Assembly (NCBI GenBank): GCA_039199865.1
Contig: JBCCSR010000001.1
Coordinates: 1 to 43,510, forward strand
DNA from: Bacteroidota bacterium
Lineage (GTDB): Bacteria > Bacteroidota > Bacteroidia > Chitinophagales > Saprospiraceae
DNA: 43,510 nucleotides
Reading direction: 5' to 3'
The translations under genes and the position numbers were made by a program. Below are positions 168 to 37,900 of the stretch, piece after piece. The notes under the pieces were generated by a model, which was not told the origin of the DNA, made no database searches, and saw only the letters and a list, made by a program, of their open reading frames with translations. Every line of letters starts with the position of its first letter. The stretch's first letter is position 1.

Positions 168-842
168 ATGAAACTGGAAAAACTAAGCATTACCGCTTTT
201 GAGGACGATCAGTTTACGACCAAAGTAAAGACCCTGAAGCCTCTGGAAGTTTTGATCAATCCGGAGAAATACAAGCGGAGTTACAACATGTTGACGAGCG
301 AGGAAGTCAGCCGAGTCACCAATGCCAATCAGGAAGTAATCGAGCGGAAAATCATCGAACCCCAAGGAGAATCGTTTACCCTCGAATTGTGGTTTGACAA
401 CACGGGAGCCATTCCCAAAAGCAAGGATGTATTTTCCCAAATTGAAAAGCTCAAGGACATTGCCCTTCGCTACAATGGAAAAATTCATTCCATCAACTTT
501 GTCGTCATCAACTGGGGCACCCTGGTGTTCAAAGGGCAAATGACGGGCCTGGATGTTGAGTACCAGCTTTTTCAACCCGATGGCACCCCCTTGAGAGCCA
601 AGGCGACCGCCAAGTTCAAACAAATTATTGATGCCCAAACGAAGGAGGAAATGAAACTCCGTTCTTCTCCTGATCTGACTCATGTCAGGATTGTCAAGGA
701 TGGAGATACCCTTCCACTGATGTGCTATCGGATCTATAAAAATAGCAAATATTACCTCCAGGTGGCCTTGGCCAACGGATTGCCCAATTTTACGGATCTC
801 CAACCTGGACAAAAGATTGTTTTTCCTCCTTTAGAACGGTAG
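168..842 (+). CDS. CIS tube-fold protein with a C-terminal LysM domain (Afp7/Pvc7-like baseplate tube initiator)
   Basis: 224-aa ORF with an ATG start. The N-terminal two-thirds has the phage/CIS tube-protein pattern (LSITAF..VLINPEKYKRSY..FTLELWFDNTG..INWGTLVFKGQMTGLDVEYQLFQPDGTPLRAKATAKF). The C-terminus is a LysM motif (VKDGDTLPLMCYRIYKNSKYYLQVALANGL..LQPGQKIVFPP). Confidence 0.8.
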   Translation: MKLEKLSITAFEDDQFTTKVKTLKPLEVLINPEKYKRSYNMLTSEEVSRVTNANQEVIERKIIEPQGESFTLELWFDNTGAIPKSKDVFSQIEKLKDIALRYNGKIHSINFVVINWGTLVFKGQMTGLDVEYQLFQPDGTPLRAKATAKFKQIIDAQTKEEMKLRSSPDLTHVRIVKDGDTLPLMCYRIYKNSKYYLQVALANGLPNFTDLQPGQKIVFPPLER

Positions 843-2784: not shown

Positions 2785-3084
2785 ATGCCTCCTGCTGCCA
2801 GAATCACAGACATGCATACTTGTCCTATGCAAACGCCAGCCGTTCCTCCCATTCCCCACGTTGGTGGCCCGATCATTGGTCCTGGCGTGCCCAACGTGTT
2901 AATTGGTGGTATGCCCGCTGCCGTAATGGGAGATAGTTGCGTTTGCGTTGGTCCTCCAGATTCTATTGTCAAAGGCTCTGCTACTGTGATGATTGGTGGC
3001 AAACCTGCTGCCAGAATGGGCGATACCACTGCTCATGGCGGTACCATTGTACTGGGATTGCCTACCGTAATGATTGGGGGTTAA
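2785..3084 (+). CDS. PAAR-domain spike-tip protein (Afp10/Pvc10 equivalent), minimal form
   Basis: 99 aa with three PAAR-like repeats (PPAARITDMHTCP, GGMPAAVMGDSCVC, GGKPAARMGDTTAHGG). It starts 20 nt after the VgrG stop. Confidence 0.95.
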   Translation: MPPAARITDMHTCPMQTPAVPPIPHVGGPIIGPGVPNVLIGGMPAAVMGDSCVCVGPPDSIVKGSATVMIGGKPAARMGDTTAHGGTIVLGLPTVMIGG

Positions 3085-3115
3085 ATGAGTGCATCTAAGT
3101 TTAAAGCAAAATCAA

Positions 3116-3562
3116 ATGTCAGCGAAAATCAATAAAACTTTTTTGGGTACGGGTTGGAGTTTTCCTCCTTCCTTTGATCACTTTTCCAGCTCACTGGAAA
3201 TGGTATCGGAAGAGGCAGACATTCGACAGAGTTTGTTTATCCTTCTGTCGACTACTCCCGGAGAGCGACTGATGAAGCCCAAATATGGTTGTGATCTACA
3301 GAGCGCGGTTTTTGATGTCATCAATAATACGATGCGGCATCATTTGATCGATTTAATTACGGTGGCCGTCATTCGCTTTGAACCCAGAGTGACCGTCGAC
3401 GAGGTGAAAATTAGCCTGGATCGCAAGGACGAAGGATTGGTAGATATCGATTTGTATTACACAGTTCGCAAAACCAATATCCGAAGCAACATTGTTTACC
3501 CATTTTATTATCGAGAAGGAACCAACCTTCGAGATGCACAGCTGAAAGAGGTCGGCACCTAG
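3116..3562 (+). CDS. GPW/gp25-family baseplate wedge protein (Afp9/Pvc9 equivalent)
   Basis: The sequence has a gp25-lysozyme-like pattern (FLGTGWSFPPSFD..IRQSLFILLSTTPGERLMKPKYGCDL..VFD..). I prefer the ATG at 3116 (MSAKINK..) over the GTG at 3089 given in the ORF track. Confidence 0.85.
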   Translation: MSAKINKTFLGTGWSFPPSFDHFSSSLEMVSEEADIRQSLFILLSTTPGERLMKPKYGCDLQSAVFDVINNTMRHHLIDLITVAVIRFEPRVTVDEVKISLDRKDEGLVDIDLYYTVRKTNIRSNIVYPFYYREGTNLRDAQLKEVGT

Positions 3563-3575
3563 GTGCCTTTAGGAG

Positions 3576-6500
3576 ATGGCAGCTTCAAGCAAAAATAAAA
3601 CCTTTGCCCTTCGGGGAACTGCTCGTTTTGAACGATTGCAGCGAGCCCTCCTGCCAGATTATGCTTTGATAGATGAACGTCGATTGAGTGATCTGCTCTC
3701 CTTTGCCGCAGATTATGCCCAGGTCATTAATTTCTATGACACAAATAACAAAGTGGTGGGCGACTGGTCAGCATTTTTTAAAAAAGATGTAAGCGTATTT
3801 TTGGCCGATATCATCACCTTGGACTTAGATGAGCTGCGCAATAATATTCAGGAAACCATTAACCGAATTTATCAATCTCCCGAGGGAGATTCTAACCAAA
3901 AATACCTCTTGTTCCGTAGTTTTTTTTATCAAGTTTTGGAATGGGCAAGATTGGTGAACGATCTATATATTCGTTCTTTTCAATTGCGAAAAATAGCCGA
4001 AGAAACCCCCATTGAACGAGAATTGGAGATGTCGATTCAACGTAATCTGCGGGATGCGCTCAAAGCCTTGAAGTCCTATGATTTGGGCACCGCTTTGGAA
4101 GAAAAATTTAGTATGCCCTTGGGGGGGAATTACGAGGAGTTTCATCCCATTTGGGATTTGAGTCGAGTAGAAGCCTTCAATGTTTTTATTGGCAAAGACT
4201 TAGATGAAAAGGTAGAGCATGCAACGAAATCCCTACAATTGATTTTTCGGAAATTTGATTTTGGTCTGACCAATGTCATCAAGAATGCTCCCGAATTATT
4301 GCGCCAATCCCTTCGACATAAAAATGACCACCAACCGGATATTGCCCTGTTTATTGCCTTTCTCCAATTGTATCGTTTCAACCAGAATCACCTCAATAGT
4401 TTTACCGAAAAGCATTTGGATTATTACTACCGAACGGTTCTACAACAAAAAGAATGTAAACGAAGTCCTGATCACGCCCATGTGGTCGTCGAGTTGGGTG
4501 AACACCTGGATCGCTACACCCTTGAAAAGGGTACTCGGCTCCTGGCAGAGGTCAATGCCAATGGTTTAGAATCGCATTATCAAACGGATGCGGCGCTGGA
4601 AATCAGTAAAGCAAAGATCGAATCTTTAAAAACGGTATTTGTGAGCAAACCCGTCTTTGCTGGCGTTGCCTCCTCTTATCGTTTGGTCGGCAATATCTAT
4701 GCAGCTCCGGTGGCCAACTCAAAAGACGGTATGGGGACTCCCTTCGATGCTGAGGATTTTACTTGGCCTACCTTCGGTGAGGAACAATCCATCCAAGCTA
4801 AAACGGATAAAAAAATGATGCCGGCAGATATTGGGATGATGATTGCTTCTCCAGTTTTGATGATGGCCGAGGGACAAAGAGAAATTAGACTTCAGTTTCA
4901 GTTTAAAATGGAAACCCTCAACACTTTACGGATTCTCTTAGACAATGCCAGTGAGCGAGAAAAACTTTCCGTTGATCACGTTTTTTTAAAAGTTTTTCGG
5001 GAGGCCCTGGATATTCAATTGAGTGGCGCCACTGCTTGGGTTGCAGTGGATAAGTATGAATTCAATGTACCAAGTGCTTGGCAGAATGGTTGTTTAGAAC
5101 TCAAATTGAGCCTTGCCCACTCACAACCCGCCATTGTGCCTTATGATGCAACAGTATTGGGAAAAAATATTGATACTCAGTGGCCGATCTTAAAAATACG
5201 GCTGAAAAATGAAGGCAATGTGTACGCTTATTCTTTTCTCAAGAAATTGGAGCTAGAAAAAATAGATATCGAAGTGGCCGTTAAAGGAATGAAGGACGTC
5301 GCCATTTACAATAACCTGGGCTTGATTGACAACTCGGCTCCCTTCCAACCCTTTGGTCTGACTCCCACTAAGAATGCTTATTTCCTCATTGGTTCGCCAG
5401 AGTTGTTCAACAAGGAATTAACGGATTTTTCGGTAAAAATAGATTGGGACAATTTGCCGGAGGAGGGCTTTGCAAAATATTACGAGGCTTATCACTCCGG
5501 TATCGACGATCAATCTTTTAAAGTCCAGTTGAGTGCCTTATCCAACTATGAATTTTATCCTCTGGAAGAAGAGATTCGTCAAGGCTTTGATTTGTTTCAA
5601 TCCGAAGGATCCGAAGGAACGTTGTCTGAGCAGACCCAATTGGACGCTGTCGATTTGGAAAAACTAAAAATTGCTCCAGATTATGAATTACTTGAGATTC
5701 CCGAATTTACCAATCGATCGAGGATAGGATTTTTTAAGATCCAGTTGAAGACTCCTACCATGGGCTTTGGCTTTAAGGCCTATCCCATCTTATTTGCCAA
5801 GGCATTGGCTGAAAATGCTAAGGCGGAGAACTTTCGCTTTTTTCAATTGAAGAAAAAACCACCTGCACTCGTCCCACGAGAACCTTTTGTTCCGGTGATC
5901 AATAAATTGACCATTGATTACAAAGCAAAAAGTAGTCTGGACATTGCCAATACCCAACAGGGAGGTAGGGGTAAGCATGCCAAGGAAAAACTCTTTCACA
6001 TTCATCCCTTTGAAATCGAAACCATCTTTGAAAATGGTTTTGCCAGAAGCGCTCATTTATTGCCACAGTACGATGAAGAGGGCTATCTCTACATTGGATT
6101 GAGCAACCTAAGACCTCTAGAAAAACTTTCCCTTCTTTTCCGATTGGAAACCAGTAAAGAAACCTACAACAAAAAGCCAGTGGAGATTACCTGGATGTAT
6201 CTCGCTAAAGATATTTGGAAAGCAATCGAGGAAGAAAATATTTTGTTTAACACTACCGAGAACTTTACCAAAACGGGAATCGTCAATTTGAATATTCCCG
6301 TGGATATCACCAAGGGCAATCAGCAGTTGGATGACCATTTGTACTGGCTGCGCGTGAGTGTAAAAGGCAATAAAGATGTTTTGGGGAGGGCCAAAAACAT
6401 CCTTGCGCATGCGGTGCGGGTAACTTGGGTGGATAATGGAGATACCGATCACTTTAAGGCATTAGAACAACTGCCCCGGATTAAAGAATTGGTGCAATCT

Positions 6501-7379
6501 CTTAGTGCAATTAAAAAGGTGGAGCAACCCGATGCTTTTTTTGGAGGTCGACCCAAAGAAGAGAAAGCGGACTTTTACTTGAGGGTGAGTGAACGCTTGC
6601 GCCACAAAAATCGAGGCATCAACCGATGGGATATTGAAAGATTGGTTCTAGAGCGGTTTCCTTACATTCATCAGGTCAAATGCTTTGGCAATGCGGGCAA
6701 TGAGGCCTATGTTGAACCTGGAATCATTAAGGTGGTCGTAGTGCCTAAGGTCAATGAAAAATGGCTAATGCCTAAGGTTGGTTTTGATCGTTTGATCGAA
6801 ATTAAAAAGTATCTGACGCCGATTGTTGCTCCAATTGCAGAGATCGACGTCATCAATCCAGTGTACGAGAAAATTGTCATCAACTGCGACATTAAATTTG
6901 ATGAAAATTTAAAAGGAAAAGGTTTGACCTTTTACCAATTGCACGAAGAGATCAAACATCGGATTTGTCCCTGGCTGCAAGGAAAATCTTTGGCGATGGG
7001 GGGAAGTTTATTGCAAAATGAATTGTTGAATTTTATCAAAGATCGGCCTTACGTAAAATTTGTGACGGCTTTTTCGATTTTACACATTACGGAAAAGGAA
7101 GGATACTTTACCTTAACTGACTCTGCACGAAGTCAACAAAACAGCTCGACCATCCAGGCAAGCATGCCTTGGAGTGTCCTCGTACCTGTGGAAAAACACC
7201 AGATCAATTTAATTTCTAAAGAAGTTTTTAAATCCTCAGAAATTACCCTGATCAACAAAATGCGATTGGGGACTGAATTTATCATTTCTGCCAATGGAAA
7301 AGAGCCCTTGGAGATGGAATGGTTGGTCGAACAACCCGAAGAGGAGGAGGATCAAAGTTTTTGGATTGTCAATATTTAA
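3576..7379 (+). CDS. Baseplate J/gp6-like wedge protein (Afp11/Pvc11 equivalent), unusually large at 1267 aa
   Basis: The C-terminal third carries the baseplate-J signature (HLYWLRVSVKGN..FFGGRPKEEKADFYLRVSERLRHKNRGINRWDIERLVLERFPYIHQVKCF..PGIIKVVVVPK). The ATG is preceded by aggag. Confidence 0.85.
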   Translation: MAASSKNKTFALRGTARFERLQRALLPDYALIDERRLSDLLSFAADYAQVINFYDTNNKVVGDWSAFFKKDVSVFLADIITLDLDELRNNIQETINRIYQSPEGDSNQKYLLFRSFFYQVLEWARLVNDLYIRSFQLRKIAEETPIERELEMSIQRNLRDALKALKSYDLGTALEEKFSMPLGGNYEEFHPIWDLSRVEAFNVFIGKDLDEKVEHATKSLQLIFRKFDFGLTNVIKNAPELLRQSLRHKNDHQPDIALFIAFLQLYRFNQNHLNSFTEKHLDYYYRTVLQQKECKRSPDHAHVVVELGEHLDRYTLEKGTRLLAEVNANGLESHYQTDAALEISKAKIESLKTVFVSKPVFAGVASSYRLVGNIYAAPVANSKDGMGTPFDAEDFTWPTFGEEQSIQAKTDKKMMPADIGMMIASPVLMMAEGQREIRLQFQFKMETLNTLRILLDNASEREKLSVDHVFLKVFREALDIQLSGATAWVAVDKYEFNVPSAWQNGCLELKLSLAHSQPAIVPYDATVLGKNIDTQWPILKIRLKNEGNVYAYSFLKKLELEKIDIEVAVKGMKDVAIYNNLGLIDNSAPFQPFGLTPTKNAYFLIGSPELFNKELTDFSVKIDWDNLPEEGFAKYYEAYHSGIDDQSFKVQLSALSNYEFYPLEEEIRQGFDLFQSEGSEGTLSEQTQLDAVDLEKLKIAPDYELLEIPEFTNRSRIGFFKIQLKTPTMGFGFKAYPILFAKALAENAKAENFRFFQLKKKPPALVPREPFVPVINKLTIDYKAKSSLDIANTQQGGRGKHAKEKLFHIHPFEIETIFENGFARSAHLLPQYDEEGYLYIGLSNLRPLEKLSLLFRLETSKETYNKKPVEITWMYLAKDIWKAIEEENILFNTTENFTKTGIVNLNIPVDITKGNQQLDDHLYWLRVSVKGNKDVLGRAKNILAHAVRVTWVDNGDTDHFKALEQLPRIKELVQSLSAIKKVEQPDAFFGGRPKEEKADFYLRVSERLRHKNRGINRWDIERLVLERFPYIHQVKCFGNAGNEAYVEPGIIKVVVVPKVNEKWLMPKVGFDRLIEIKKYLTPIVAPIAEIDVINPVYEKIVINCDIKFDENLKGKGLTFYQLHEEIKHRICPWLQGKSLAMGGSLLQNELLNFIKDRPYVKFVTAFSILHITEKEGYFTLTDSARSQQNSSTIQASMPWSVLVPVEKHQINLISKEVFKSSEITLINKMRLGTEFIISANGKEPLEMEWLVEQPEEEEDQSFWIVNI

Positions 7380-7457
7380 GTCAATGATAGACAGCAAAAG
7401 ACGAATGGAGATTTGCCATTTGCTGTTCACCCTATTTCACTCATAAATAATCTTGCT

Positions 7458-8240
7458 ATGGCACTGTTAAATCGAGAGACATTGAAAAGTTTTTTTAGCA
7501 AAGGAACTTCTCCATCAGAGGAACACTTTGCGGAGTTGATCGACTCTTCTGTCAACAAAATTGATGATGGCTTTGCAAAATCGATTGAAGAAGGATTGCA
7601 ATTGGCGCCACAGGGGCAATCTGCAAAAGTGATGAGCTTGTATTACAATCAGGTCGATGAACAGGCAGACTGGCAAATCAGTCTTCCAAATAAGGATGGG
7701 GAGAAGGGCTTTAAAATTCAAAATCGAGAAGGCCAATCGGCTCTCTTTGTCAACAATAAAGCGCAGGTAGGCATTCAAACCATTCAGCCTCATCATGCTT
7801 TGGAGGTCAATGGTTTTACAGGGACGAGGGGACGAGTTGGTACTTTTTTTAAAGGAAAAGTTCCTGGAGATGGTAAGTGGCGCAATCTACTTGTTCGACT
7901 TGATCAACCTCAGATCTACGAAGTAGTGGCCCGCATTGATGGAGCGCCTAAAAGTGGCAAATACGCTATTGCCCATGCCATTGCCGCTTGTACCTACGGA
8001 GGAGGGCGCAATAAAATCCGAATGACCCAATCACATTACAGTTGGTTTTTTGACAAACTACAAATGCGATGGAAAGAAGAGGGGAATGGCCTTAGGCTAC
8101 AAATTCGTACGCGTGGACATTACGGCGAAGATGCCAACGAAAAACCCTATTTCATCAAATTTCACATTACCCAATTGTGGGACGAAAGTCAAGAATTCGA
8201 AGAAATTGATGAAACGCTTGCTCAGCACGAAAAAAAATAA
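7458..8240 (+). CDS. Hypothetical 261-aa protein and candidate baseplate-attached fibre/adaptor; function not established
   Basis: This is the only long ORF in the interval, on the same strand as the operon, and it ends 4 nt before the next ATG. Its N-terminus (LLNRETLKSFFSKGTSPSEEHFAELIDSSVNKIDDG) resembles a motif I associate with N-termini of tail-fibre-like proteins. ATG 7458 is preferred over TTG 7413. Confidence 0.5.
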   Translation: MALLNRETLKSFFSKGTSPSEEHFAELIDSSVNKIDDGFAKSIEEGLQLAPQGQSAKVMSLYYNQVDEQADWQISLPNKDGEKGFKIQNREGQSALFVNNKAQVGIQTIQPHHALEVNGFTGTRGRVGTFFKGKVPGDGKWRNLLVRLDQPQIYEVVARIDGAPKSGKYAIAHAIAACTYGGGRNKIRMTQSHYSWFFDKLQMRWKEEGNGLRLQIRTRGHYGEDANEKPYFIKFHITQLWDESQEFEEIDETLAQHEKK

Positions 8241-8244
8241 AATC

Positions 8245-11200
8245 ATGACCGTCCGCGAAAATTATCCTTTAGATCCCATCCAAAATCCAACCTCTGAATT
8301 TGCTTCTCCCTATGAGGAGCATCAGACCATTTCAGCCAAAGGACCGGTGCATGAGAGCATGGATTACGATTTTTTACGGAGAAAGGGTATTGAATACGTT
8401 CAAAGGCTTTCCGGAAAAATCTGGACCGACTATAACGAACACGATCCAGGGGTGACGATTTTGGAACAACTATGTTTTGCACTAACCGACTTGGGTTATC
8501 GAAGCAATTTTTCGGTAGAGGACATTTTATTTTCTAAACGTCATCCATTGGAGGCGAGACCCAATAACGCCTTCTTTTCTCCTCAAGCTATTTTTCCTAG
8601 TGCACCGCTGTCATTGAATGATTATCGAAAGTTATTGATTGATCAAGTACTTTACGTAAAGAATGCTTGGTTGGAAATCGACGAGACCAATTTGCATGGT
8701 TACAAGGGCTTGTACAATGTACGGTTGCAGCTTTGGGACAACCTTAGTCCTGAAAAAGAGAAAGCAACAATTGAGGAAGTATATGAACTGTTAAATGCGC
8801 ATCGCAATCTTTGTACGGATATCGTAGAGATTAGTGTATTGGCTACAGATAAAATTGGAGTTGCTGCTGATATCTCCATCAATACCAATGCCATTGGCGA
8901 AGTTGTTTTTGCCGAAATCATTCACCAACTCGAAAAATTCCTCAATCCAGTTGTTCAGTTATACAGTCTCGAAGAACTGCTCAAAGAAGGGAAAACAATT
9001 GACGAAATACTGGAAGGACCATTGCCGGCGCACGGATTTATCAAAACCGAAGAATTGGCAGCGTTACATTCTGAAATTTACATTTCTAGTTTCATCGAGA
9101 TCATATCAAAAGTAGAGGGCGTAGAGGAAGTACAGAATTTGGTCGTCACTTTTGAGGGACAAAGCGTAGATGAAAATGTCATTGTTTTTGCGGAAGGACG
9201 TCATCCGGTTTTGGATGAAAATATGTATAGAGCCAAAGAAGACCAATCGAGCTTGCGCATGTATCGAGGAGATGTAAAAATTGATGTTGATTCCAGTCGA
9301 GTCCAGCAGTTGCTCAATCTTTCTTCGGCGAAGGATCGTAAAAATTTTAAGCTGTCGCTCAACCTCGATCCGCAGCAAACATTGGTTCGCAAACCTTTGG
9401 GACAGATTGAACAATACGTTTCCCTACAGAATTATTTTCCACAAGTTTACGGAATTGGGCATTATGGTTTGCCTTATGGGGCCGATGCACATCGTGCCGG
9501 ACAGGCAAAGCAACTGAAGGGGTATTTGAGTATATTCGAACAAATATTGGCCAATTATCTTAGCCAATTGGCCAACATTCGCCATCTCTTCTCCATTGAA
9601 GACGAAACCAATGCGACCTACTTTAGTCAGCTCCCCCGAGCCATTCCTCAATTGAAAAAATTATTGGCCAAAAAAACCATGATGCGCACGGAGAAATGGT
9701 TGGAGCAAAGAACTCGTCAAACCGATCCCTACTTTGACCGACGCAATCGCTTCCTAGATCATCTTCTGGCCCGCTTTGGTGAGCAATTTAACGTGGATCA
9801 CTTATTGAAGATGTCGGGAAAGGCCAACGGAGAGAACGCCAACGGAGAGGTACAAAACGGCTTGATTCGAGCCAAAGCAAAAATGCTGAGAGATTTTCCA
9901 AGGCTGAGTGCGGATCGAGGGAAAGGATTCAACTACCAACTCCCGGCGTGGAGCACCGACAATGTGGCCGAACTCAAGAAAAAAATTGCCCAGCTTTTAA
10001 ATATCGAAGATGCTCAAAATCGTAGGTTGACCAAGTTGGCAGCCTTTGAGGGATTGAAAATGACCGAGCCCAAGGAGCGTACCAATCAATTCGGCTATGG
10101 TTTTTTAAACCTGAAATTGAGTCTCAGGGAAATGCTTTCTCTTGGAGTTCAAGAATATCGCTACCGGATAGAATACGACGTAAACACCCGTAATCATTGG
10201 GTCTATTTCAAAACGCGAAAGGGAAAACCGCTGGCGGTTTACAAAGAAAAAACGTTGAGCAAATGTGAACAAGCCATCAGCAAAATGATTGAGCGGTTTC
10301 AAAAAATCAATCGCGAAAGTGAGGGCTTTTTCTTAATAGAAAATATATTGTTAAGATCTCGGTCAAAGGCACAATGGAATTTGACTTTGCTCGACATGGA
10401 TGGTAGTCCAATTCTGACGACCATAAAGAGTGGCAGTTATCAAGATCAAGAGGAAATCGCCTTTAATATTTTATTGCTGGGAACGCATAGAGATAATTAT
10501 GAGATACAAAAAAACGGAGCGGCTTGCCTACTGATTTTGCGCAACTACCGAAAGGAAGCCATTATGGTATCGGTTGAAAATTATCGAGAAGAGGAGGTTG
10601 AGGCCAAAATCAATACTATGGTGGAGATGCTCAATGCCATTCGCCAGAATGATCCAGTGCAGGTAAGCAATTTATTGCGGTTTGAAGAGGTAGATCGGGG
10701 AGCCCTAGAACATTCGCGCGCCTTTTATTCCAATCGTTTGAGTGTAATCATTCCCGCTTGGCCAGGCCGATTTCAGAACAAAGATTTCCGCAGTAACTTC
10801 GAACACCTTTTACGAATCAATGCTCCGGTTCATCTGGCGATTAACTTTTTCTGGTTGAGTTTTCAGCAAATGCAAAACTTTGAAAAAAACCATCAGCTCT
10901 GGATAGAAGAATTGACCCGTAAAGATTCTATTCCCCAAAAGCTCGATGATTTTTCTTTTCATTTGGCGAGTCTGCTCAACAGTTATAAAACCAGCTCCCT
11001 GGAAAAGGCCAGAGAGGATGCAAGGCCTCAGCAGGTGGATCGCAATCGGGCCATCCTCGGCCATTTTCATGTTTTCCAAAATGAAAATTTACAGATCATT
11101 GAAGGGATAGGACCGGAGATAGAGCAATGGCTCAAAAAGCAAAAAATCCACAATTGGCAAGCCTTGGCGCATTCTAGTATTGAAGATCTAAAATCTATCG

Positions 11201-11670
11201 TGGAGGCGATTCAACCCGGAGCGCCATTCCAGCAGTATGCCAATTGGTCTGATCAGGCCTGGTTAGCTCAAGAAGGCAAGTGGAATCAATTGATTGCTTA
11301 TCAGCGATTGCTCAGTAGTCGAAAGCGCCAGCATCCAGACGAAAATTTACCATCAAAAATCGAAAAGATGATTATCGAAATCTTTGGACCAGAGATCAAG
11401 AGTAACGATCTGAAAATCATTTACGGCATTACGCCCAAGGTGGAAAAAATACTAAAAGAAGCAAATGTCAACAGTTTGGCTACATTGGCAGGAATAGAAC
11501 TGAATACCATCAATAACATTTTAGCATCAGCGGGCATTCAACAGCATTTCATCAATCCAGAAAGCTGGAATAAACAGGCTCAACTGGCGTTAAATAAAGA
11601 ATACGATGATCTGTGGAGCTACCAAAAGTCGCTTCACGCAACAAGAGATATGCTAGACGAACAGCCTTGA
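8245..11670 (+). CDS. Afp12/Pvc12-like baseplate wedge protein (gp7/gpI-like) with a C-terminal tandem HhH-like add-on
   Basis: 1141 aa from ATG 8245; the ORF-track start at 8050 would overlap the previous gene by 190 nt. The N-terminal motif (YDFLRRKGIEYVQRLSGKIWTDYNEHDPGVTILEQLCFALTDLGYRSNF) matches the conserved start of eCIS Afp12-type proteins as I recall them. Confidence 0.75.
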   Translation: MTVRENYPLDPIQNPTSEFASPYEEHQTISAKGPVHESMDYDFLRRKGIEYVQRLSGKIWTDYNEHDPGVTILEQLCFALTDLGYRSNFSVEDILFSKRHPLEARPNNAFFSPQAIFPSAPLSLNDYRKLLIDQVLYVKNAWLEIDETNLHGYKGLYNVRLQLWDNLSPEKEKATIEEVYELLNAHRNLCTDIVEISVLATDKIGVAADISINTNAIGEVVFAEIIHQLEKFLNPVVQLYSLEELLKEGKTIDEILEGPLPAHGFIKTEELAALHSEIYISSFIEIISKVEGVEEVQNLVVTFEGQSVDENVIVFAEGRHPVLDENMYRAKEDQSSLRMYRGDVKIDVDSSRVQQLLNLSSAKDRKNFKLSLNLDPQQTLVRKPLGQIEQYVSLQNYFPQVYGIGHYGLPYGADAHRAGQAKQLKGYLSIFEQILANYLSQLANIRHLFSIEDETNATYFSQLPRAIPQLKKLLAKKTMMRTEKWLEQRTRQTDPYFDRRNRFLDHLLARFGEQFNVDHLLKMSGKANGENANGEVQNGLIRAKAKMLRDFPRLSADRGKGFNYQLPAWSTDNVAELKKKIAQLLNIEDAQNRRLTKLAAFEGLKMTEPKERTNQFGYGFLNLKLSLREMLSLGVQEYRYRIEYDVNTRNHWVYFKTRKGKPLAVYKEKTLSKCEQAISKMIERFQKINRESEGFFLIENILLRSRSKAQWNLTLLDMDGSPILTTIKSGSYQDQEEIAFNILLLGTHRDNYEIQKNGAACLLILRNYRKEAIMVSVENYREEEVEAKINTMVEMLNAIRQNDPVQVSNLLRFEEVDRGALEHSRAFYSNRLSVIIPAWPGRFQNKDFRSNFEHLLRINAPVHLAINFFWLSFQQMQNFEKNHQLWIEELTRKDSIPQKLDDFSFHLASLLNSYKTSSLEKAREDARPQQVDRNRAILGHFHVFQNENLQIIEGIGPEIEQWLKKQKIHNWQALAHSSIEDLKSIVEAIQPGAPFQQYANWSDQAWLAQEGKWNQLIAYQRLLSSRKRQHPDENLPSKIEKMIIEIFGPEIKSNDLKIIYGITPKVEKILKEANVNSLATLAGIELNTINNILASAGIQQHFINPESWNKQAQLALNKEYDDLWSYQKSLHATRDMLDEQP
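11086..11633 (+). repeat. Two tandem copies of a ~75-aa helix-hairpin-helix-like module inside the Afp12-like CDS
   Basis: Copy 1 is NLQIIEGIGPEIEQWLKKQKIHNWQALAHSSIEDLKSIVEAIQPGAPFQQYANWSDQAWLAQEGKWNQLIAYQ. Copy 2 is DLKIIYGITPKVEKILKEANVNSLATLAGIELNTINNILASAGIQQHFINPESWNKQAQLALNKEYDDLWSYQ. They align without gaps. Confidence 0.7.
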
Positions 11671-11686
11671 GTCAATTGCAGATTGG

Positions 11687-14600
11687 ATGGATGAAAATCG
11701 ACATATCATCAAGCGGCAAATCTTTAACGTAGAGGTTGGCGCCGAAAAAGAAGCTCCCAAAATACAGGAGGAGGTAAGTCGTATTTATCACGCCAAGTTG
11801 GCCCCCTTGATTGAAAAACATTTGGCTCGGTACGATCAACAATTGGGTACGATTCGACTTGAGCAATTGGTACTCAACTGCGAATACCTTCATGCTGATC
11901 ATTTGGAGGAACGCTTGATTGCAGCCTTAGAAGAACAGTTGCCACTCCTTCTGGCAAGCCAAATCCAGCGCGCTCCCACTGCTCCATCTAAAAATATTGC
12001 TCCAGCGGCCCCAGGAGTGGATAGCCAGCAGAAATTATTGCAATATTTCTTGAGAACTGGCCATTTTCCTTGGTGGGCCAGTACAACGGCCATTGAATTC
12101 AATTCATTGCTAAAAAGTGTATTGGATCGGCAGGCGGAATGGTTGTTTGACTTTTTGCGAAAAACCGTGGGACAAACATCAGTTTTACGACGTCTTTGTT
12201 GCCAAACCCATCCTCAGGTATTGGAAAAAATAGAGCGGCAATTACTCAGAGATAGATTGGTAAGGATCCAAAAACACCATCAAAAACTCCTCCGCTATTT
12301 TCAAAGAGGACTAAAGAAAAGCATTCCATTACAACCACTGGCTTTGCTCCTTCGGCAAGGACATTTGCATTACGCCTTACAATACGGACAACAGTCTTTT
12401 GACGAGACGCTTTATTTTCGTTGTACTTTGGAAAGTATCCGTAAGGAGCAGAATACAAGTCTGTATCGGTCCGTAGAGCAAATGCTTCAGCGAAAAAAAG
12501 ACAAGGGTCGATACCAGCGTTTCAATGACCACTTGGCAAAGGAGTGGTCGAATTTGATGGTACGAGAGAAGCAACGGGAAAAACACCTAACACGGAATTG
12601 GCGACCAAGAGCTGCTTTGTTCTTTTTTATCCAAAAAGGATTTTTTCCGGAAGGTCAGGTCTTATCAATGGAGGAGTTGAACGAAGTTGTCGTCAATATT
12701 TTTGAAAAGGAAAAGGGAAGTGCTTACGAGCAGTTGACTCAGCTTCTAGTAGAAGAAGGATTCCGGCTGCGTTTGATGCATCACCTGTCTGCCAGGACGC
12801 TTGCTTATTGCGTCAGTAAATTGCTCCGGCTCCAAAAAATGGGAACCACTTCACTTCGTGAAGATTGTATTCAGCTGTTTGAAAAAGTATTTCGTCGAAA
12901 ATATACTACTCAGCAGTTGGCTGCGAAAATAGATCAAACGATTTTTTACTGTGCTTTTCAGCAAGAACTTCAGCCCTTTCAGTTGATACACCTATTGCAG
13001 GCGCTACTGCAAAAATTCAGTAGAGAGCAGCGGCAGAGTTATCTTCAACTGATTCACCAAATGGTGGTCAATTCAAAGCAGATGCATTTGCCCAACAAAG
13101 ATCTTTTGTTGTCGACATGGTTTAGACTCTATGAGCAAAGCCTGGAGGGGGAGGCGAATCAGGGCCATCGTTCTGTTGAACAACAATTGTTTCATTATTT
13201 GTCGGATGGTTCCTGGGAAGAAGGAGAACTGGTCATCTCTCCCGCTGATTTGGAAAAGAGCTGGCAGACTTTATTAAAGGAAAATCGACCTCATTTTAAA
13301 AAACAATTGCTTCATCAACTTCATAAGGAGAAATTTAGAAAACGCTTGCTTCAACAATTTTCGGAGACCACCTTACAAATGGTTTTTGTCTTGTTATTGG
13401 GGGATTGGGCCACCAAGATTCCCCTCTACAAAAAAGATTTGTTGACTTTATTTCGACAGATGTATCCCCGACGATACGATCGGCAAAAATTTGCAAAACA
13501 GTTGGACCAACTCCTTTTGGCTTATGTGGTGAATCGCAATCATTGGCCCTTTCAAGCGACTTTTTTTCTGGAAAAAATGCTCACAGATATGCAAGCATTA
13601 ACGGGGCAAACGCTGGAGTCTGCATTGGTTTTAGTGAACGCATCATTTCCTGAACTTATTCGTCAAAAGCTATTGAAAAGTCAGTTATTGCATGCCGCTA
13701 TCCCTCTTGCTGAGCAGGAAGAGTATTTTGATAACAAAACAGTAACGAATCATGAGAGTGACTTTATTGCCAATCTGCAGCACTATTTAAACCGGGAGGG
13801 ACAACACCCTTATTCCACTCGAAAATCTGAAAGGGATTGGCGCCAGGACTTATCCAAGCGGCTGTTGGAAAAAGATCCAGCTTTGCTCGAATTTCTCCAA
13901 CAACATTTGCGCAATACGACTGCTGTGGAACAGCTGTTTGATCGGTTTAGTCCCGAAGTTTGTTTGATGGTGAGCAATGCCTTGTTCGGGAGAAGAAGTG
14001 AACTCATGGAGAAGTACTTCAAGGATTTGCGCTACATCAGTGAATTGGCTTTGGTAGGCCCTTTTTCTAAAAGTCAGGTCAACCACTTCTTGGAGCTTGG
14101 GGTATTTCTTTACTTGTCGCAGGGAGAGCAAAGCGTTTTTGACCCTTCTTCTTTCTTGAAAAAGATTTGTCAGTATCTGTCTCAGGCTTTACCGTTTCCA
14201 CTAGAAAAACTACTGTTGAGGATTGAGGAAAAGGCTCGCCTCCTAGACCAGCGTCAACGTTTTGCCAGTCCATTACCAGATTTATTGAGACAAATTTTTC
14301 CACAACAAGATCAGCAGGAGGGCCCTTTGCAACAACAAAAAGATGCTGCTTCTATTCAATGGTTGCACTATTTTTTGGAGAAGGGGAAACTGCCACAACA
14401 TTCGCCCTTTGAGAGCTTGGCAGAATTGGAAGACTACTTTTTAACGGTCTTGTCGACCAATGCGGGAGAGGCAAAACGATTGTTGAAAACTTATTTGCCC
14501 AAAAATCGATCGCTCCACTATTTGCTCCATCATTTTTCGGCCAAGACTATTGCCCACATCAGTCAGACGATGGCCGCCAGCGAATGGGAAACTGCCCAAA

Positions 14601-17600
14601 AGTATTTGACTGATTTTCGGAAGATCATGGCGGCGATGTACGTTGGCGTACATTCTAAGAAATTATTAAACCGGCAAATTGATGCTGCCTTTCTGACTTA
14701 TTGCACTAGTGGTCAGCGGGGAGTGTTCAAACCACTGGTCTTTATCAATGCCATACTAGATTACCTGGCCAAAGCCTTCAATACGACTTTAGGAGAATTA
14801 TCTGAGCTGGCTAAAACAAAGGCTCAAAGGATGGAGCAGGAAGTTCGATTTGCCAGTCCCCTTTCGGATTTGCTACAACAGCTAGAGCAGGAAGAAGAGG
14901 CGAAGCATTTCCAGCATTCCATCAATTCTCCCAAAGCGTCAACTGACCATTTACTCTACTTTTTACAAAAGGGGACTTTTGCTCCAGACGCAGTGATGCC
15001 AACAATGAGTCAGTTGGAAAATCAATTTTTACAAGCATTAAAAACCGCTCATCCGGTCTTTCTCACCAAAGTATTAGAAGTATTGCGCGAAGCTACTGCC
15101 TTCCAGCATTTGACCAGACAATTCTCTGAAGTTCTCCGACATGACTTACTTCAGGTATTGAATCATCAAAGTACCATTTGGAAAAGTGCTTATCATATGC
15201 AATTAGGAGAATTGTTGCATCAAGTAGCAATGATTCGTTATCCGATGTATTTGATTCAGCGAGAACTGGATTTTGCCGTCATCAAAGGGCATGTGGTGCA
15301 TCAAAAAAAGGAAGTGGCCTTGACGGCTTTTGTCGATACCCTTGTCATGCATCTGTCCGACTCTTTTGCGATTGGGGCTACGGATTTGTCGAGGTCTTTA
15401 GAAGAAATAGTACAAACAATGCGTCGTTCCGGAAGCGTTGTCGAGCCATTGCTACAAGTCCTCAGTGAAAGGCAAGTTACTTTGCTGGAAAAGAGAGGAA
15501 ACAAGGCAAGTACAGAGGCAATTGAAGCCGCTATTTTTGCCTTTGTAAAAACGGGGCGCTTCAAGCGGCAAGCAGTTTTGGGACAAAGAGAAGCGTTAGA
15601 GCAACAATTGATTTTGCTACTGGAAAAAGGTGCAACTACTTTTATGCGTCAAATGCGAGCAAGTTTAAAAGCTACCTCAGTTCTTCCAAAGGTCATTGAT
15701 TTGATGACATTGCCATTGCTCGAAAGATGGACAGAGCTACTGTGGGATGACGTACCTCTGATTGCCAGATACCGGCAAGACTTTCGCCAACTATTTGCCG
15801 CTGTTCCAGATAAATTGGAGCCCAGACAAGGCCTACCGAATGAACTAGAGAAAGTGTTATTGCTAGAGGGAGCAGCTCGAAGCCGTCCAAATTTTCAAGC
15901 TCCCCATTTTGTATTACAAATCATTCGTCGATTGGCGATGAGCTATGGACTTAATGTGTCGACCTTATTGAAAAAAAGCGTAGAGACCGCCCGGCAGATA
16001 TACTTGAAAAAGGGATTTCAAACACCTCTTCCCAATTTGTTGTGGCAGATACGAGAGCAACCACCAATAGCAGTGAGGGCGGTAAACACCCAATCGGTAC
16101 TAGAAGTAGTTCGGTATTTCTTGACGAAAGGTCAATTGCCTGCTGCTTCTCCCCAGTTTGAGACGGTCTTGGATTTGGAACTTCAGTTGCTAAAAGTTGT
16201 CAAGCAAAAAGATGTTCCTTTTCTACGGAATTTGAAAGACATTCTAACGAAAAGTAAAAAGAGTCAGCAATACATTCAGCAATTGGCCCTTGAGACTCAA
16301 GCCACCTTGGGACAAGTTTTGGGAAATGTTTTTTTACCGAATCTACGAGAGATAAGTGAGGACTTACAATTGCTTTTGAGCAAAATGGAAGCCCTCAGGA
16401 TGACTCCCCAAAAATGCAAATCCATTTTGAACCTGACAGCTCTGGAAATACTCACGCAAAATTATTCTGCTGCGTCCCAAGAGAATCACTATTTTGAAAG
16501 GGTATTGTTGAATTCAGTAGAGCAGCAAGTGCTCCCCAATCGCGTTTATTTTGAAAAAGTGAAGCAAACCCTTCAGGTCCTTACTGAGCAGAAAATACTG
16601 AAGCGCATTACGAAAACGAAATTGCAAAATTGGTCTTTTCAAGAAGCAGACTTAAAAAGCAGTCTACAAGTGGGAACGGATGTTCGCCAAAAAGCAAATG
16701 CTTCCAGGACGGAACAACAAGTAATTTCCGTGTTACTTCAGCTCTTAGGAACCTTTCTGCTGACTGGACATTTTGAGTCCCGAAAAAGCGTTTCAACGTT
16801 CCTGGATTTTGAGTGGCAGTTGACGGCTTTGTGTAAAAAGGGAGGGAAAAAATTCCTCCATCAACTTCGGCAAACTTGGCAAAAAGGCGACAAGCATCAG
16901 AAAAGAATAAAAGCATTTGCCCCTCAAAGTCTAAGGAGTATTTGTCAGGCGATCAACAAACAGTTTTCGAAAGGGATGGAAGACTTGATGAGTGATTTAA
17001 AACAGGTTCTCCATGGATTGGAACAATTGGGTAGTCGAACAGAAAATATCCAGCTGCTCGTAGATGAGAGTCGGTTGACCACTTGGACCAAAGCACCCAA
17101 TGGGACAACTACCGAGTCTGAACTTGTTCGTCACGTCTTGCATCAGTTGACGCAAGTTCGACGAATGCCTTTGGAAGTACTTGGCCCAAAGGTGCTCCAA
17201 GAAACGAAAAAATTACGGAAGGGAGGGCGACTGAAAAGCCAATTGTGGAAGCATTTGCAATCAATTGATTTCCACGAAAAAGAGGCAGCGATTTACGAAG
17301 AAAGGGAGGATGCCCTAGAAGAGATGGACCCAGAGCGTCTCCCATTGAGCGAAGAGCAACCATTGCATCGCCCAACACTTGAGCAGCCCATTTTATCGGG
17401 TAACTATTTGTTGGATCTCCTCCAGTATTGGCTAACTTTTGGTGAGACGCCCTGGTGGAGTAAGAACGAGGAACCACTCGATGAAGTACTTCTTCGGCTG
17501 GGAGAGGAAGATCCAAAACGATTGTTGGATACGCTGCGCTATGCTCTTGAACGGCCACAACAAATACAAGATTTTTTGAATCAGTTGTCAGAGGAATCAC

Positions 17601-26195: not shown

Positions 26196-26584
26196 TGGTC
26201 TTTACTTTTTTCGATTGACTTAATGTATTTTTTGAGGGCTTTAATTTCTTCGGCTGAGGTTTTGTAATTGCCAAGTGCTTTCATGACCATACGCAAAGCA
26301 GAACCACCAAAAGTTTTGTGGAGGAATTTATCTAACAAAACACTTTGGGTTTCATCTTCTTGTACAATGGCTTGGTAAATGTGTTTCCTGCCCGCAGCTT
26401 CACGGGTGAGCATGCCTTTTTCCCACATGACTTGCATTGTCTTTAGGGTAGTAGTATAAACGACCTCTTTCTCTTCTGCCAATTTTTCGTGAACCATCTT
26501 TACCGCGTTTGGACCATTCTCCCAAAGAATTTGGAGGATGGCCAGTTCTGATGGTGTGGGGTTGAGTTTTTCTTGATTTCCCAT
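26192..26584 (-). CDS. BlaI/MecI/CopY-family winged-helix transcriptional repressor
   Basis: 130 aa with the penicillinase-repressor pattern (ELAILQILWENGPNAVKMVHEKL..VVYTTTLKTMQVMWEKGMLTREAAGRKHIYQA). Its stop overlaps the M56 start as ATGA (26192-26195), the classic blaI-blaR1 arrangement. Confidence 0.9.
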   Translation of the reverse strand: MGNQEKLNPTPSELAILQILWENGPNAVKMVHEKLAEEKEVVYTTTLKTMQVMWEKGMLTREAAGRKHIYQAIVQEDETQSVLLDKFLHKTFGGSALRMVMKALGNYKTSAEEIKALKKYIKSIEKSKDQ

Positions 26585-37872: not shown

Positions 37873-37875
37873 CAG

Positions 37876-37900
37876 ACTGCATTTTTTTTGCAGTTTTATT
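37876..37900 (+). terminator. Weak intrinsic terminator after the alkylation-repair gene
   Basis: actgca (37876-37881) pairs with tgcagt (37889-37894) around a T-only loop, followed by tttatttt. The stem is only 6 bp. Confidence 0.4.

What the first reader, a model, noticed from the sequence alone, without database searches (positions are those of the whole stretch)
11687..19144. Giant 2485-aa tape-measure-like protein built from eleven ~195-aa modules
This is one uninterrupted 7458-nt ORF in the tape-measure slot. Between Afp14-like termini I can align 11 copies of a module, anchored on these motifs:
- LLQYFLRTGHFPWW (G125)
- LFFFIQKGFFPEG (G318)
- LFHYLSDGSWEEG (G508)
- LQHYLNREGQHPY (G705)
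- LHYFLEKGKLPQH (G900)
- LLYFLQKGTFAPD (G1096)
- IFAFVKTGRFKRQ (G1290)
- VRYFLTKGQLPAA (G1482)
- GTFLLTGHFES (G1694)
- LQYWLTFGETPWW (G1919)
- EYYFVHGSFRDT (G2133)
The spacings between anchors are 193, 190, 197, 195, 196, 194, 192, 212, 225 and 214 aa. Each anchor is followed ~55-60 aa later by a second motif (HHLSARTLAYCV, LQQFSETTLQMV, FDRFSPEVCLMV, LHHFSAKTIAHI, TRQFSEVLRHDL, LNQLSEESQDSI). Several anchors are preceded by RFASPLPDLLRQI, RFASPLSDLLQQL or FQTPLPNLLWQI. I saw no long nucleotide-level repeats, so the duplications look old and maintained rather than recent slippage.
In tailed phages, and experimentally for Afp14, tail length scales with tape-measure length. By the rough siphophage rule of ~1.5 angstrom per residue, 2485 aa would template a tube of roughly 0.37 micrometre. 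That is several times the ~100-nm particles I recall for Afp/PVC, and each module would add ~29 nm. Very long tail-like rods (rhapidosomes) have been described in some filamentous Bacteroidota, and a locus like this would be a natural genetic basis, though this is speculative. Alternatively the modules could be lumen-packed cargo or cargo-docking units rather than a ruler.
Basis: partly seen in the sequence, partly recalled or inferred. Interest (0 to 1): 0.85.

Follow-up and report, generated by a model that had tools for sequence, protein, structure and literature searches.

The report
Eleven-module giant injection-system tape measure
This 2485-residue gene is a real but unusually long tape-measure protein of a phage-tail-like bacterial injection machine. 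Eleven old copies of a ~195-residue helical unit sit between the two end domains it shares with the known ruler Afp14, so it probably specifies a needle about half a micrometre long.

Summary
Window 11687-19144 is one uninterrupted 2485-aa ORF. It contains exactly eleven in-register copies of a ~195-aa module, shown by leave-one-out profiles and by an anchor-free autocorrelation. There is no nucleotide-level repetition.

The protein is a member of the contractile-injection-system tape-measure family (Pfam PF19268, 459 bits). Both of its terminal domains are homologous to Afp14 of Serratia plasmid pADAP. It sits between the baseplate genes and the AAA+ ATPase of an AlgoCIS/tCIS-type cluster, probably from a Saprospiraceae bacterium.

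The module is not peculiar to this gene. A profile of it finds 1410 protein clusters. Among 139 complete relatives the detected module number runs from 2 to 14 and tracks protein length (r = 0.84). Only two relatives are longer (2812 and 3184 aa).

The nearest orthologue keeps the array residue-for-residue in length at only 47% identity.

Saprospiraceae 'rhapidosomes' have already been equated with 420-nm tape-measured T6SSiv structures, so this is a long new member of a known kind. The repeat architecture itself I did not find described. An unresolved tension is that AlphaFold2 predicts each module as a compact domain, not an extended rod.

The parts
11687..19144 (+). Complete tape-measure gene (Cis14/Afp14 family), 2485 aa plus a TGA stop
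   Evidence: Searches show the ORF. One search gives PF19268 CIS_TMP at E = 3.5e-137, 458.9 bits against a cut-off of 27.8, in 8 stretches.
11687..12004 (+). N-terminal domain (aa 1-106), shared with Afp14
   Evidence: A jackhmmer profile finds this domain in 157 of 162 family members. It matches Afp14 residues 16-82 at E = 1.7e-10.
12005..12586 (+). Module 1 (aa 107-300)
   Evidence: Leave-one-out score 53.8 bits. Its best match elsewhere is the first module of P0134, P0136 and P0164.
12587..13156 (+). Module 2 (aa 301-490)
   Evidence: Leave-one-out score 53.8 bits. Its best match is module 3 of the same protein.
13157..13744 (+). Module 3 (aa 491-686)
   Evidence: Leave-one-out score 72.8 bits.
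13745..14332 (+). Module 4 (aa 687-882)
   Evidence: Leave-one-out score 71.7 bits. It is 59% identical to L001 module 1.
14333..14920 (+). Module 5 (aa 883-1078); this is the module that was modelled
   Evidence: Leave-one-out score 106.3 bits. AlphaFold2 gives pLDDT 91.0 and pTM 0.86, with nine helices.
14921..15502 (+). Module 6 (aa 1079-1272)
   Evidence: Leave-one-out score 44.2 bits.
15503..16078 (+). Module 7 (aa 1273-1464)
   Evidence: Leave-one-out score 58.5 bits.
16079..16717 (+). Module 8 plus a 17-aa linker (aa 1465-1677)
   Evidence: Leave-one-out score 52.0 bits.
16718..17389 (+). Module 9 plus a 32-aa linker (aa 1678-1901)
   Evidence: Leave-one-out score 60.7 bits.
17390..18034 (+). 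Module 10 plus a 26-aa linker (aa 1902-2116)
   Evidence: Leave-one-out score 40.8 bits.
18035..18634 (+). Module 11 (aa 2117-2316); corresponds to the single module in the Pfam model
   Evidence: Leave-one-out score 26.0 bits. The best Pfam stretch, 2114-2484, maps to profile positions 102-463.
18635..19141 (+). C-terminal alpha/beta domain (aa 2317-2485), shared with Afp14
   Evidence: 29.8% identity to Afp14 residues 361-528, E = 4e-20. AlphaFold2 gives pLDDT 93.6 and pTM 0.89. It is 71% identical in L001.
168..842 (+). LysM-tube initiator (Cis7/Alg7-like)
   Evidence: PF19266 CIS_tube at E = 2.7e-42. PDB 7aeb_M, named LysM domain-containing protein, at E = 1.2e-54.
972..2765 (+). VgrG-like spike
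   Evidence: Phage_base_V at E = 7.8e-20.
2785..3084 (+). PAAR spike tip
   Evidence: PAAR_motif at E = 4.2e-26.
3089..3562 (+). gp25-like baseplate wedge protein
   Evidence: GPW_gp25 at E = 1.8e-22.
3576..7379 (+). Cis11-type baseplate J protein
   Evidence: PDB 7aeb_G (AlgoCIS) at E = 7e-112, 7b5h_AH (tCIS) at 1e-108, Pvc11 at 4e-29 and Afp11 at 8e-19.
8050..11670 (+). Cis12-position large baseplate gene. No family was assigned, and the true start may lie downstream of the overlapping 275-aa ORF at 7413-8240.
   Evidence: ORF list. The same gene order is seen in L008-L012.
19141..20502 (+). Cis15-type AAA+ ATPase. Its ATG overlaps the tape-measure TGA (ATGA).
   Evidence: AAA domain at E = 3.8e-29. 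The called product is 453 aa (P0014). The sequence at 19140-19144 was read.

Best explanation
The gene encodes the length-determining tape-measure protein (Cis14/Afp14 family) of an AlgoCIS/tCIS/T6SSiv-type contractile injection system, in a bacterium that is probably a member of Saprospiraceae.

**Architecture (shown).** The conserved N-terminal domain (aa 1-106) and C-terminal alpha/beta domain (aa 2317-2485) are the family's invariant ends. Between them the family's helical spacer has grown to eleven ~195-aa modules.

**How it grew (inferred from module similarities).** Growth was by tandem duplication of internal modules. The first and last modules keep orthologues in other lineages.

**How it works (inferred by analogy).** The C-terminal domain probably docks in the spike/baseplate hub. 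Tube and sheath polymerise along the protein until its N-terminal end is reached. The ruler role itself was shown by mutagenesis for Afp14 and Alg14, not for this protein.

**Predicted size.** With the family-specific coefficient of 0.216-0.229 nm per residue, the machine would be about 0.54-0.57 µm long. Each module would contribute about 43-46 nm, roughly ten to eleven tube rings if the rise per ring is about 4 nm. The ring spacing is from my own background knowledge and was not checked here.
For: **Family membership.**
- PF19268 at 458.9 bits against a cut-off of 27.8.
- Both termini are homologous to Afp14 on pADAP.
- The gene lies between the baseplate genes and the AAA+ ATPase, with an ATGA start/stop overlap.
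- The same order recurs in five related loci: a Cis11-position gene of ~1260-1300 aa, a ~260-290-aa gene, a Cis12-position gene, the tape measure, then the ATPase.
- The baseplate proteins are closest to AlgoCIS 7AEB and tCIS 7B5H.

**Repeat architecture.**
- Eleven modules are verified.
- Module number tracks protein length across 139 complete relatives: r = 0.84, range 2-14.
- Related loci (orthologous clusters and one Saprospiraceae MAG) carry tape measures of 1137 to 1640 aa.

**Constraint on length.**
- Window residues 751-2226 align to the nearest orthologue (L001) over 1472 positions at 47.4% identity. There are only four indels, of 1-3 aa, and the net length change is zero.
- For comparison, the neighbouring ATPase is 83% identical and the C-terminal domain 71%.

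**Structure prediction.** The module is all-alpha.

**Literature.**
- Internal duplications and a deletion in Alg14 change AlgoCIS length as predicted by 0.229 nm per residue.
- Aureispira T6SSiv has a uniform 420 +/- 8 nm length, attributed to Cis14.
Against: - No particle has been seen, and the sheath and tube genes lie outside the window.
- AlphaFold2 predicts the module as a compact nine-helix domain (pTM 0.86). Eleven such domains in a row would span far less than 0.5 µm, so the protein would have to be extended or remodelled inside the tube.
- The coefficient of 0.229 nm per residue exceeds the 0.15 nm rise of an alpha-helix, so the physical basis of the ruler in this family is unclear.
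- Extrapolation from 526 aa to 2485 aa is untested.
- Afp14, whose length-setting role has been tested experimentally, has no detectable module. I did not obtain the Alg14 sequence to test it. The ruler role of this specific module is therefore inferred.
- The low indel rate could reflect fold constraints rather than selection on length.
Confidence: 0.8

Rival explanations
1. The termini perform the tape-measure and assembly-initiation role. The eleven modules are folded lumen-resident units that dock or space cargo, or are themselves delivered. Under this reading module number sets payload capacity, not length.
For: - Each module is predicted to be an autonomously folded compact domain (pLDDT 91, pTM 0.86), unlike an extended ruler.
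- Longer AlgoCIS tubes carry more cargo.
- The gene is translationally coupled to the cargo-loading ATPase.
- Proteins consisting only of the C-terminal domain exist, so the ends can function as separate units.
Against: - In AlgoCIS, changing the internal helical region changes particle length proportionally.
- Module number scales smoothly with total length across the family.
- The modules show no similarity to any toxin, enzyme or known cargo-binding domain in Pfam, NCBIfam, the PDB or BFVD.
- Length is conserved more strongly than sequence.
Confidence: 0.12
2. The long ORF is an assembly or annotation artefact. Either a repeat array was inflated by misassembly, or several genes were fused by sequencing errors.
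For: - The contig is a metagenomic singleton; the cluster has one member, and its longest contig (43,510 bases) is the same length as the window.
- The nearest orthologue, L001, is split into two ORFs by a frame change.
Against: - The modules share at most 31 nt of 71%-identical DNA, so there is nothing for an assembler to collapse or expand.
- L001 is colinear over 1476 residues plus the C-terminal domain.
- Independent contigs carry intact 2812-aa and 3184-aa relatives.
- There are no internal stops.
Confidence: 0.03
3. It is the tape measure of a prophage or tailocin tail, not of a bacterial injection system.
For: Tape-measure proteins and gp25, VgrG and tube-like genes also occur in myophage tails.
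Against: - No capsid, portal, terminase or lysis genes appear among the 19 larger ORFs of the window that I scanned with Pfam.
- The cluster has a Cis15-type AAA+ ATPase and PAAR.
- Its closest solved relatives are AlgoCIS and tCIS baseplates.
- The module has no structural neighbour among predicted viral proteins.
Confidence: 0.03

Closest known systems
Afp14, tape-measure protein of the Serratia entomophila anti-feeding prophage (pADAP NC_002523.5, 89619-91226, 535 aa)
   Same: - It has homologous N-terminal and C-terminal domains.
- RefSeq gives it the product name 'contractile injection system tape measure protein'.
- It occupies the same slot, immediately upstream of the AAA+ ATPase.
- Its length-determining role was shown experimentally (Rybakova et al. 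2015, as cited).
   Different: - It is 4.6 times shorter.
- Its ~280-aa middle region does not match the module profile.
- Identity is only 30% in the best-conserved domain.
Alg14 of the Algoriphagus machipongonensis eCIS (AlgoCIS), 526 aa, 120.6-nm particle
   Same: The baseplate clade is the same: the window's Cis11-type and Cis7-type proteins hit 7AEB at E = 7e-112 and 1e-54. Alg14 has an alpha-helical middle between mixed alpha/beta ends, and duplicating or deleting the helical part lengthens or shortens the particle at about 0.229 nm per residue.
   Different: I could not obtain the Alg14 sequence for comparison, and no Alg14 chain was found in the PDB by sequence. Alg14 is about one fifth the length. 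No repeat architecture is described for it.
Cis14 of the Aureispira sp. CCB-QB1 T6SSiv ('rhapidosomes'), 420 +/- 8 nm
   Same: It comes from the same probable bacterial family (Saprospiraceae). The structure is very long and uniform, and its length is attributed to a tape measure. IS insertions in cis14 abolish assembly.
   Different: I could not retrieve its sequence, length or module count. Whether the window's system is membrane-anchored like T6SSiv or released like an eCIS cannot be told from this window.
Long CIS tape-measure proteins already in databases: Marivirga aurantiaca WP_201430807.1 (2147 aa), a Saprospiraceae MAG protein (3184 aa, JBGTQJ010000033.1) and a Logan-assembly protein (2812 aa)
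   Same: They share the family and the module type, with 10, 14 and 12 detected modules respectively. The Marivirga protein is already named a CIS tape-measure protein by NCBI.
   Different: The expansions look largely independent. Only the first and last modules pair one-to-one with the window's; the internal ones do not.
Tailed-phage tape-measure proteins (lambda gpH, T4 gp29, TP901-1 TMP)
   Same: They work on the same principle, with length proportional to the ruler protein. Chen et al. 2019 list T4 gp29 as the phage counterpart of Afp14.
   Different: There is no detectable sequence or fold similarity to the module. From background knowledge, phage rulers are thought to be extended helical bundles at about 0.15 nm per residue, whereas this family calibrates at about 0.22 nm per residue.

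Membership tests
CIS tape-measure protein (Pfam PF19268; Cis14/Afp14/Alg14) | Scores above the curated Pfam gathering threshold | tested here: met
   458.9 bits against a cut-off of 27.8, E = 3.5e-137. The best stretch, 2114-2484, covers profile positions 102-463 of 463.
CIS tape-measure protein (Pfam PF19268; Cis14/Afp14/Alg14) | C-terminal domain homologous to that of Afp14 | tested here: met
   tblastn hit on pADAP at E = 6e-10. BLASTP of Afp14 residues 361-528 against window residues 2317-2484 gives 29.8% identity, E = 4e-20.
CIS tape-measure protein (Pfam PF19268; Cis14/Afp14/Alg14) | N-terminal domain homologous to that of Afp14 | tested here: met
   A family profile seeded with window residues 1-106 matches Afp14 residues 16-82 at 34.6 bits, E = 1.7e-10, in a small local database.
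CIS tape-measure protein (Pfam PF19268; Cis14/Afp14/Alg14) | Encoded in a CIS cluster, after the baseplate genes and immediately before the AAA+ ATPase | tested here: met
   for the window. The same order is seen in L008-L012 and in pADAP.
CIS tape-measure protein (Pfam PF19268; Cis14/Afp14/Alg14) | Predominantly alpha-helical middle region | tested here: met
   An AlphaFold2 model of module 5, built with the eleven-module alignment, has nine helices and pLDDT 91. The other modules align to it in register.
CIS tape-measure protein (Pfam PF19268; Cis14/Afp14/Alg14) | Protein length sets the tube/sheath length | not testable with these tools
   Only indirect evidence is available: length is conserved against L001, and published mutagenesis covers Alg14 and Afp14.
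CIS tape-measure protein (NCBIfam naming model) | Hit to an NCBIfam model | tested here: not met
   No NCBIfam family at E <= 0.001. The RefSeq name seen on relatives must come from another rule, so this does not count against membership.
T6SS subtype iv (cell-anchored CIS of Amoebophilus/Aureispira; 'rhapidosomes') | Sheath (Cis2) groups with T6SSiv sheaths; the structure is anchored to the inner membrane; it is not released | not testable with these tools
   The sheath gene lies outside the window. Only taxonomy points this way: the ATPase and C-terminal domain are closest to Saprospiraceae MAGs.
Tailed-phage or tailocin tape measure | Lies in a tail module with head, packaging or lysis genes and without a Cis15 ATPase | tested here: not met
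   No such genes appear among the 19 larger ORFs scanned with Pfam, and a Cis15-type AAA+ ATPase is adjacent.

The most novel reading that the evidence does not exclude
The ~195-aa module is an autonomously folding nine-helix domain with no solved or predicted-viral structural relative. Under this reading it acts as a quantal length unit. Each module would template a fixed block of roughly ten tube rings, perhaps by unfolding or by binding tube subunits stoichiometrically rather than by simply spanning the distance. Lineages would then tune machine length in steps of about 45 nm by duplicating internal modules. This window would encode one of the longest fixed-length contractile machines known, at about 0.55 µm.
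Probability: 0.25. Interest if true: 0.7.

Novelty: new member of a known kind. Interest (0 to 1): 0.45.

Why it matters
- Contractile injection systems are being engineered as protein-delivery devices, and the length of their tape measure sets tube length and cargo capacity.
- This gene, and the family survey it prompted, show that nature varies that length about five-fold. It does so by changing the copy number of one definable ~195-aa module.
- That gives a natural parts list for building longer or shorter particles. It also gives a concrete test of whether length is quantised.
- The work exposes a mechanistic puzzle: compactly folded modules against an apparent 0.22 nm per residue.
- It extends the link between very long tail-like rods and Saprospiraceae beyond Aureispira.

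Tried and rejected
- **Whole-protein self-BLAST.** It found no off-diagonal hits because the modules are only about 20-30% identical. Module-wise and profile methods were needed.
- **Non-independent profile.** A profile built from all eleven modules scores them trivially, so I replaced it with the leave-one-out test.
- **Word-index search with the full protein.** It found only 13 distant proteins, matching mainly the C-terminus.
- **GTDB genome scans.** The full protein found no relative. An eight-sequence C-terminal alignment was too diverse to search with. A four-sequence alignment returned only four loci, none from Aureispira or Saprospira. I therefore could not obtain the Aureispira Cis14 length, and the preprint's supplement does not give it either.
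- **PDB sequence searches.** The full protein and a C-terminal profile gave no hits.
- **Fold searches.** The module against the PDB and BFVD, and the C-terminal domain against the PDB, gave nothing with E <= 0.001, and no TM-score exceeded 0.45.
- **NCBIfam.** No model matched.
- **Two-module structure model.** MAFFT staggered the overlapping module pairs into 1097 columns, so I dropped this and modelled the C-terminal domain instead.
- **Sub-periodicity within the module.** This was rejected: the best offset below 150 aa has z of only about 4, against 8.3 at 196 aa.
- **Rfam and tRNA scans of the window.** Both were empty.
Full report

Yes. Window 11687..19144 (+) is a single ATG-initiated ORF of 2485 codons with no internal stop.

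A plain self-BLAST shows nothing. When the protein is cut at the anchors, the pieces align with each other in register at 19-30% identity, with E-values down to 1e-17.

The decisive test is leave-one-out. A profile built from ten modules finds the eleventh, in register, at 26-106 bits. Two hundred shuffles of the left-out module never exceed 10.7 bits.

An anchor-free BLOSUM62 autocorrelation of residues 107-1660 peaks at 196, 392, 583, 779, 972 and 1165 aa. The z-score reaches 8.3, against 3.1 for a shuffled control, and there is no comparable sub-period.

The domain map is as follows.

| Segment | Residues |
|---|---|
| N-terminal domain | 1-106 |
| Eleven modules, with linkers of 17, 32 and 26 aa after modules 8, 9 and 10 | 107-2316 |
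| C-terminal domain | 2317-2485 |

At the DNA level there is nothing repetitive. The longest direct repeat is 31 nt at 71% identity, and the only one at the module spacing (588 nt) is 26 nt at 77%. The duplications are therefore old, and assembly error is implausible.

**2. What is it?**

Pfam places it in PF19268, the contractile injection system tape-measure family. The score is 458.9 bits against a cut-off of 27.8, in eight stretches. The best stretch maps residues 2114-2484 onto profile positions 102-463. The Pfam model therefore corresponds to one N-terminal domain, one module and the C-terminal domain.

I tested the claim of 'Afp14-like termini' directly. A tblastn of the last 165 residues against plasmids finds the afp cluster of Serratia entomophila pADAP. 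The gene there is 535 aa, lies just upstream of the AAA ATPase, and is named a CIS tape-measure protein.
- Afp14 residues 361-528 match window residues 2317-2484 at 29.8% identity, E = 4e-20.
- A family profile of the window's N-terminal domain matches Afp14 residues 16-82, E = 1.7e-10.
- Afp14's middle region does not match the module profile.

The surrounding genes form a CIS cluster, in this order:
1. LysM-tube protein
2. VgrG-like spike
3. PAAR
4. gp25-like wedge protein
5. A 1267-aa Cis11-type protein
6. A 275-aa ORF
7. A 1206-aa gene in the Cis12 position
8. The tape measure
9. An AAA+ ATPase, whose ATG overlaps the tape-measure stop codon (ATGA)

The Cis11-type and LysM-tube proteins are closest to AlgoCIS (7AEB, E = 7e-112 and 1e-54) and to the cyanobacterial tCIS (7B5H). 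They are much further from PVC and Afp. No phage head or packaging genes are among the ORFs I scanned with Pfam. The sheath, tube and cap genes must lie upstream of the window.

The host is probably a member of Saprospiraceae (Bacteroidota):
- After an 83%-identical ATPase on a marine JGI contig, the best named ATPase hits are a Saprospiraceae MAG and Flavilitoribacter, at 61-62% identity.
- The two best genome matches to the C-terminal domain are Saprospiraceae MAGs.
- The window also encodes a protein with a type IX secretion sorting domain.

**3. The module is a family trait**

A profile of the eleven modules (alignment A1) was searched against 1.84 billion cluster representatives. It finds 1410 proteins at E <= 0.001 and 467 at E <= 1e-10. 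Most are 1100-1700 aa with 3-6 matched stretches.

I kept the 139 listed proteins that have both terminal domains and re-counted modules with an iterated profile. Module number runs from 2 to 14 and correlates with protein length (r = 0.84; L is about 159n + 576). The slope is an underestimate because divergent modules are missed.

The window protein is the third longest. The two longer ones are:
- a 3184-aa protein with 14 modules, which is an intact ORF in a Saprospiraceae MAG;
- a 2812-aa protein with 12 modules.

A 2147-aa protein with 10 detected modules from Marivirga aurantiaca is already named a CIS tape-measure protein in RefSeq.

Loci with the same gene order carry tape measures of 1137, 1517, 1524, 1538 and 1640 aa. 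A further Saprospiraceae MAG contig pairs a 1157-aa tape measure with an ATPase. Length therefore varies nearly three-fold within one clade by module number alone.

**4. History and constraint**

The nearest relative is L001, whose ATPase is 83% identical. Its contig starts inside the gene, but what is present is colinear with the window.
- Window residues 751-2226 align to it over 1472 positions at 47.4% identity. There are only four indels, of 2, 1, 3 and 2 residues, and the net length difference is zero.
- The C-terminal domain is 71% identical.
- Modules 4-11 have one-to-one orthologues there at 40-61% identity.

Against the 12-module and 14-module proteins, only the first and last modules pair positionally. 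Modules 2/3 and 4/5 are each other's best matches.

The simplest reading has three parts. The terminal modules are fixed. The array grew by tandem duplication of internal modules, independently in different lineages. It has since been held at constant length while the sequence drifted. That is the pattern expected of a ruler, although fold constraints alone could also suppress indels.

**5. How it most likely works**

The following are shown here: family membership, end-domain homology, the repeat architecture and the length conservation.

The ruler role is inferred from published experiments. Afp14 mutants change Afp length (Rybakova et al. 2015, as cited). In AlgoCIS, a member of the same baseplate clade, two internal duplications and one deletion in Alg14 gave particles of about 138, 161 and 89 nm. 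The predictions from 120.6 nm / 526 aa = 0.229 nm per residue were 132.5, 152 and 85 nm. A fit across several systems has a slope of 0.2156 nm per residue (preprint 10.64898/2026.05.27.728243).

Applied to 2485 aa, the estimates are as follows.

| Rule | Whole protein | Per module with linker (~201 aa) |
|---|---|---|
| 0.2156 nm per residue (cross-system fit) | 536 nm | ~43 nm |
| 0.229 nm per residue (AlgoCIS) | 569 nm | ~46 nm |

A structure this long has precedent in the same bacterial family. Aureispira T6SSiv machines are 420 +/- 8 nm, a uniformity the authors attribute to Cis14, and they equate them with the classical rhapidosomes (10.1101/2024.01.29.577165).

**6. What does not fit**

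AlphaFold2, given only the eleven paralogous modules as its alignment, predicts module 5 as a confident compact nine-helix domain (pLDDT 91.0, pTM 0.86). It has no structural neighbour in the PDB or BFVD. The C-terminal domain is a confident alpha/beta fold (pLDDT 93.6, pTM 0.89), also without a solved neighbour.

A string of eleven compact domains would be an order of magnitude shorter than 0.5 µm. In addition, 0.22 nm per residue exceeds the rise of an alpha-helix. Either the modules are remodelled inside the tube, or the ruler counts rather than spans. This keeps alive the rival that the modules are lumen-resident docking or cargo units, to which I give about 0.12.

**7. Novelty**

The kind is known: a Cis14/Afp14-type tape measure. 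Very long members already sit in databases, and half-micrometre tail-like machines in Saprospiraceae are published.

Three points add something:
- This is a previously unseen sequence. Its best full-length database hit is 33% identical over 15% of its length.
- It is among the three longest module-bearing members detectable.
- The family's spacer is a countable ~195-aa repeat whose copy number explains length.

In the papers I searched, the middle region is described only as alpha-helices of varying length and number. The word 'repeat' does not occur in the AlgoCIS engineering preprint, and the two other papers I searched for the tape-measure terms say nothing about repeats in the passages retrieved. 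I rate this a new member of a known kind and of moderate interest.

Noticed in passing
L006 6319-6846; L007 10001-10519 (also P0285-P0403): Hundreds of short proteins (~165-290 aa) consist only of the tape-measure C-terminal domain. In two Saprospiraceae/Lewinella genomes they close mini-clusters of sheath, tube (L007 only), VgrG, PAAR and the C-terminal-domain-only gene, with no baseplate or ATPase genes nearby. This suggests the domain is a self-standing unit that travels with a particular spike.
   Followed up: partly
L001 4456-4502: In the nearest relative the tape-measure gene is split into two ORFs (1499+ and 240 aa). The cause is a frame change in an A-rich stretch, together with a segment about 10 aa shorter than in the window. 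It may be a sequencing error or a genuine disruption.
   Followed up: partly
window 19141-19144: The tape-measure stop codon (TGA) and the ATPase start codon (ATG) overlap as ATGA, which suggests translational coupling. In related loci the two genes overlap by 10-19 nt.
   Followed up: yes
window 21442-22269 (-) and 22565-23098 (+); L001 13292-13999 and 14369-14902: An OmpA-family gene and a 177-aa gene lie downstream of the ATPase in both the window and L001 (same sizes and order; sequences not compared). L001 has a 2005-aa gene with a weak AAA_16 match between the ATPase and these genes. The window has only a 124-aa ORF and a 132-aa coiled-coil-like ORF there.
   Followed up: no
window 23268-26584 (-): A 975-aa protein fuses a BlaR1-type M56 peptidase sensor to about twelve ankyrin repeats. 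A BlaI-type repressor gene lies immediately upstream of it.
   Followed up: no
window 28513-33417 (-): A 1634-aa type IX secretion substrate combines CotH kinase, lamin-tail, HYR, C-type lectin and GEVED domains.
   Followed up: no
window 37873-39885: About 2 kb has no ORF of 80 aa or more on either strand, and no Rfam family, tRNA or tandem repeat was found.
   Followed up: partly
L003 899-10501 and 10513-11742: The 3184-aa tape-measure gene of a Saprospiraceae MAG is followed by a 409-aa ORF on the opposite strand. No same-strand ORF of 250 aa or more lies in the next ~10 kb, so the usual ATPase is missing there.
   Followed up: no
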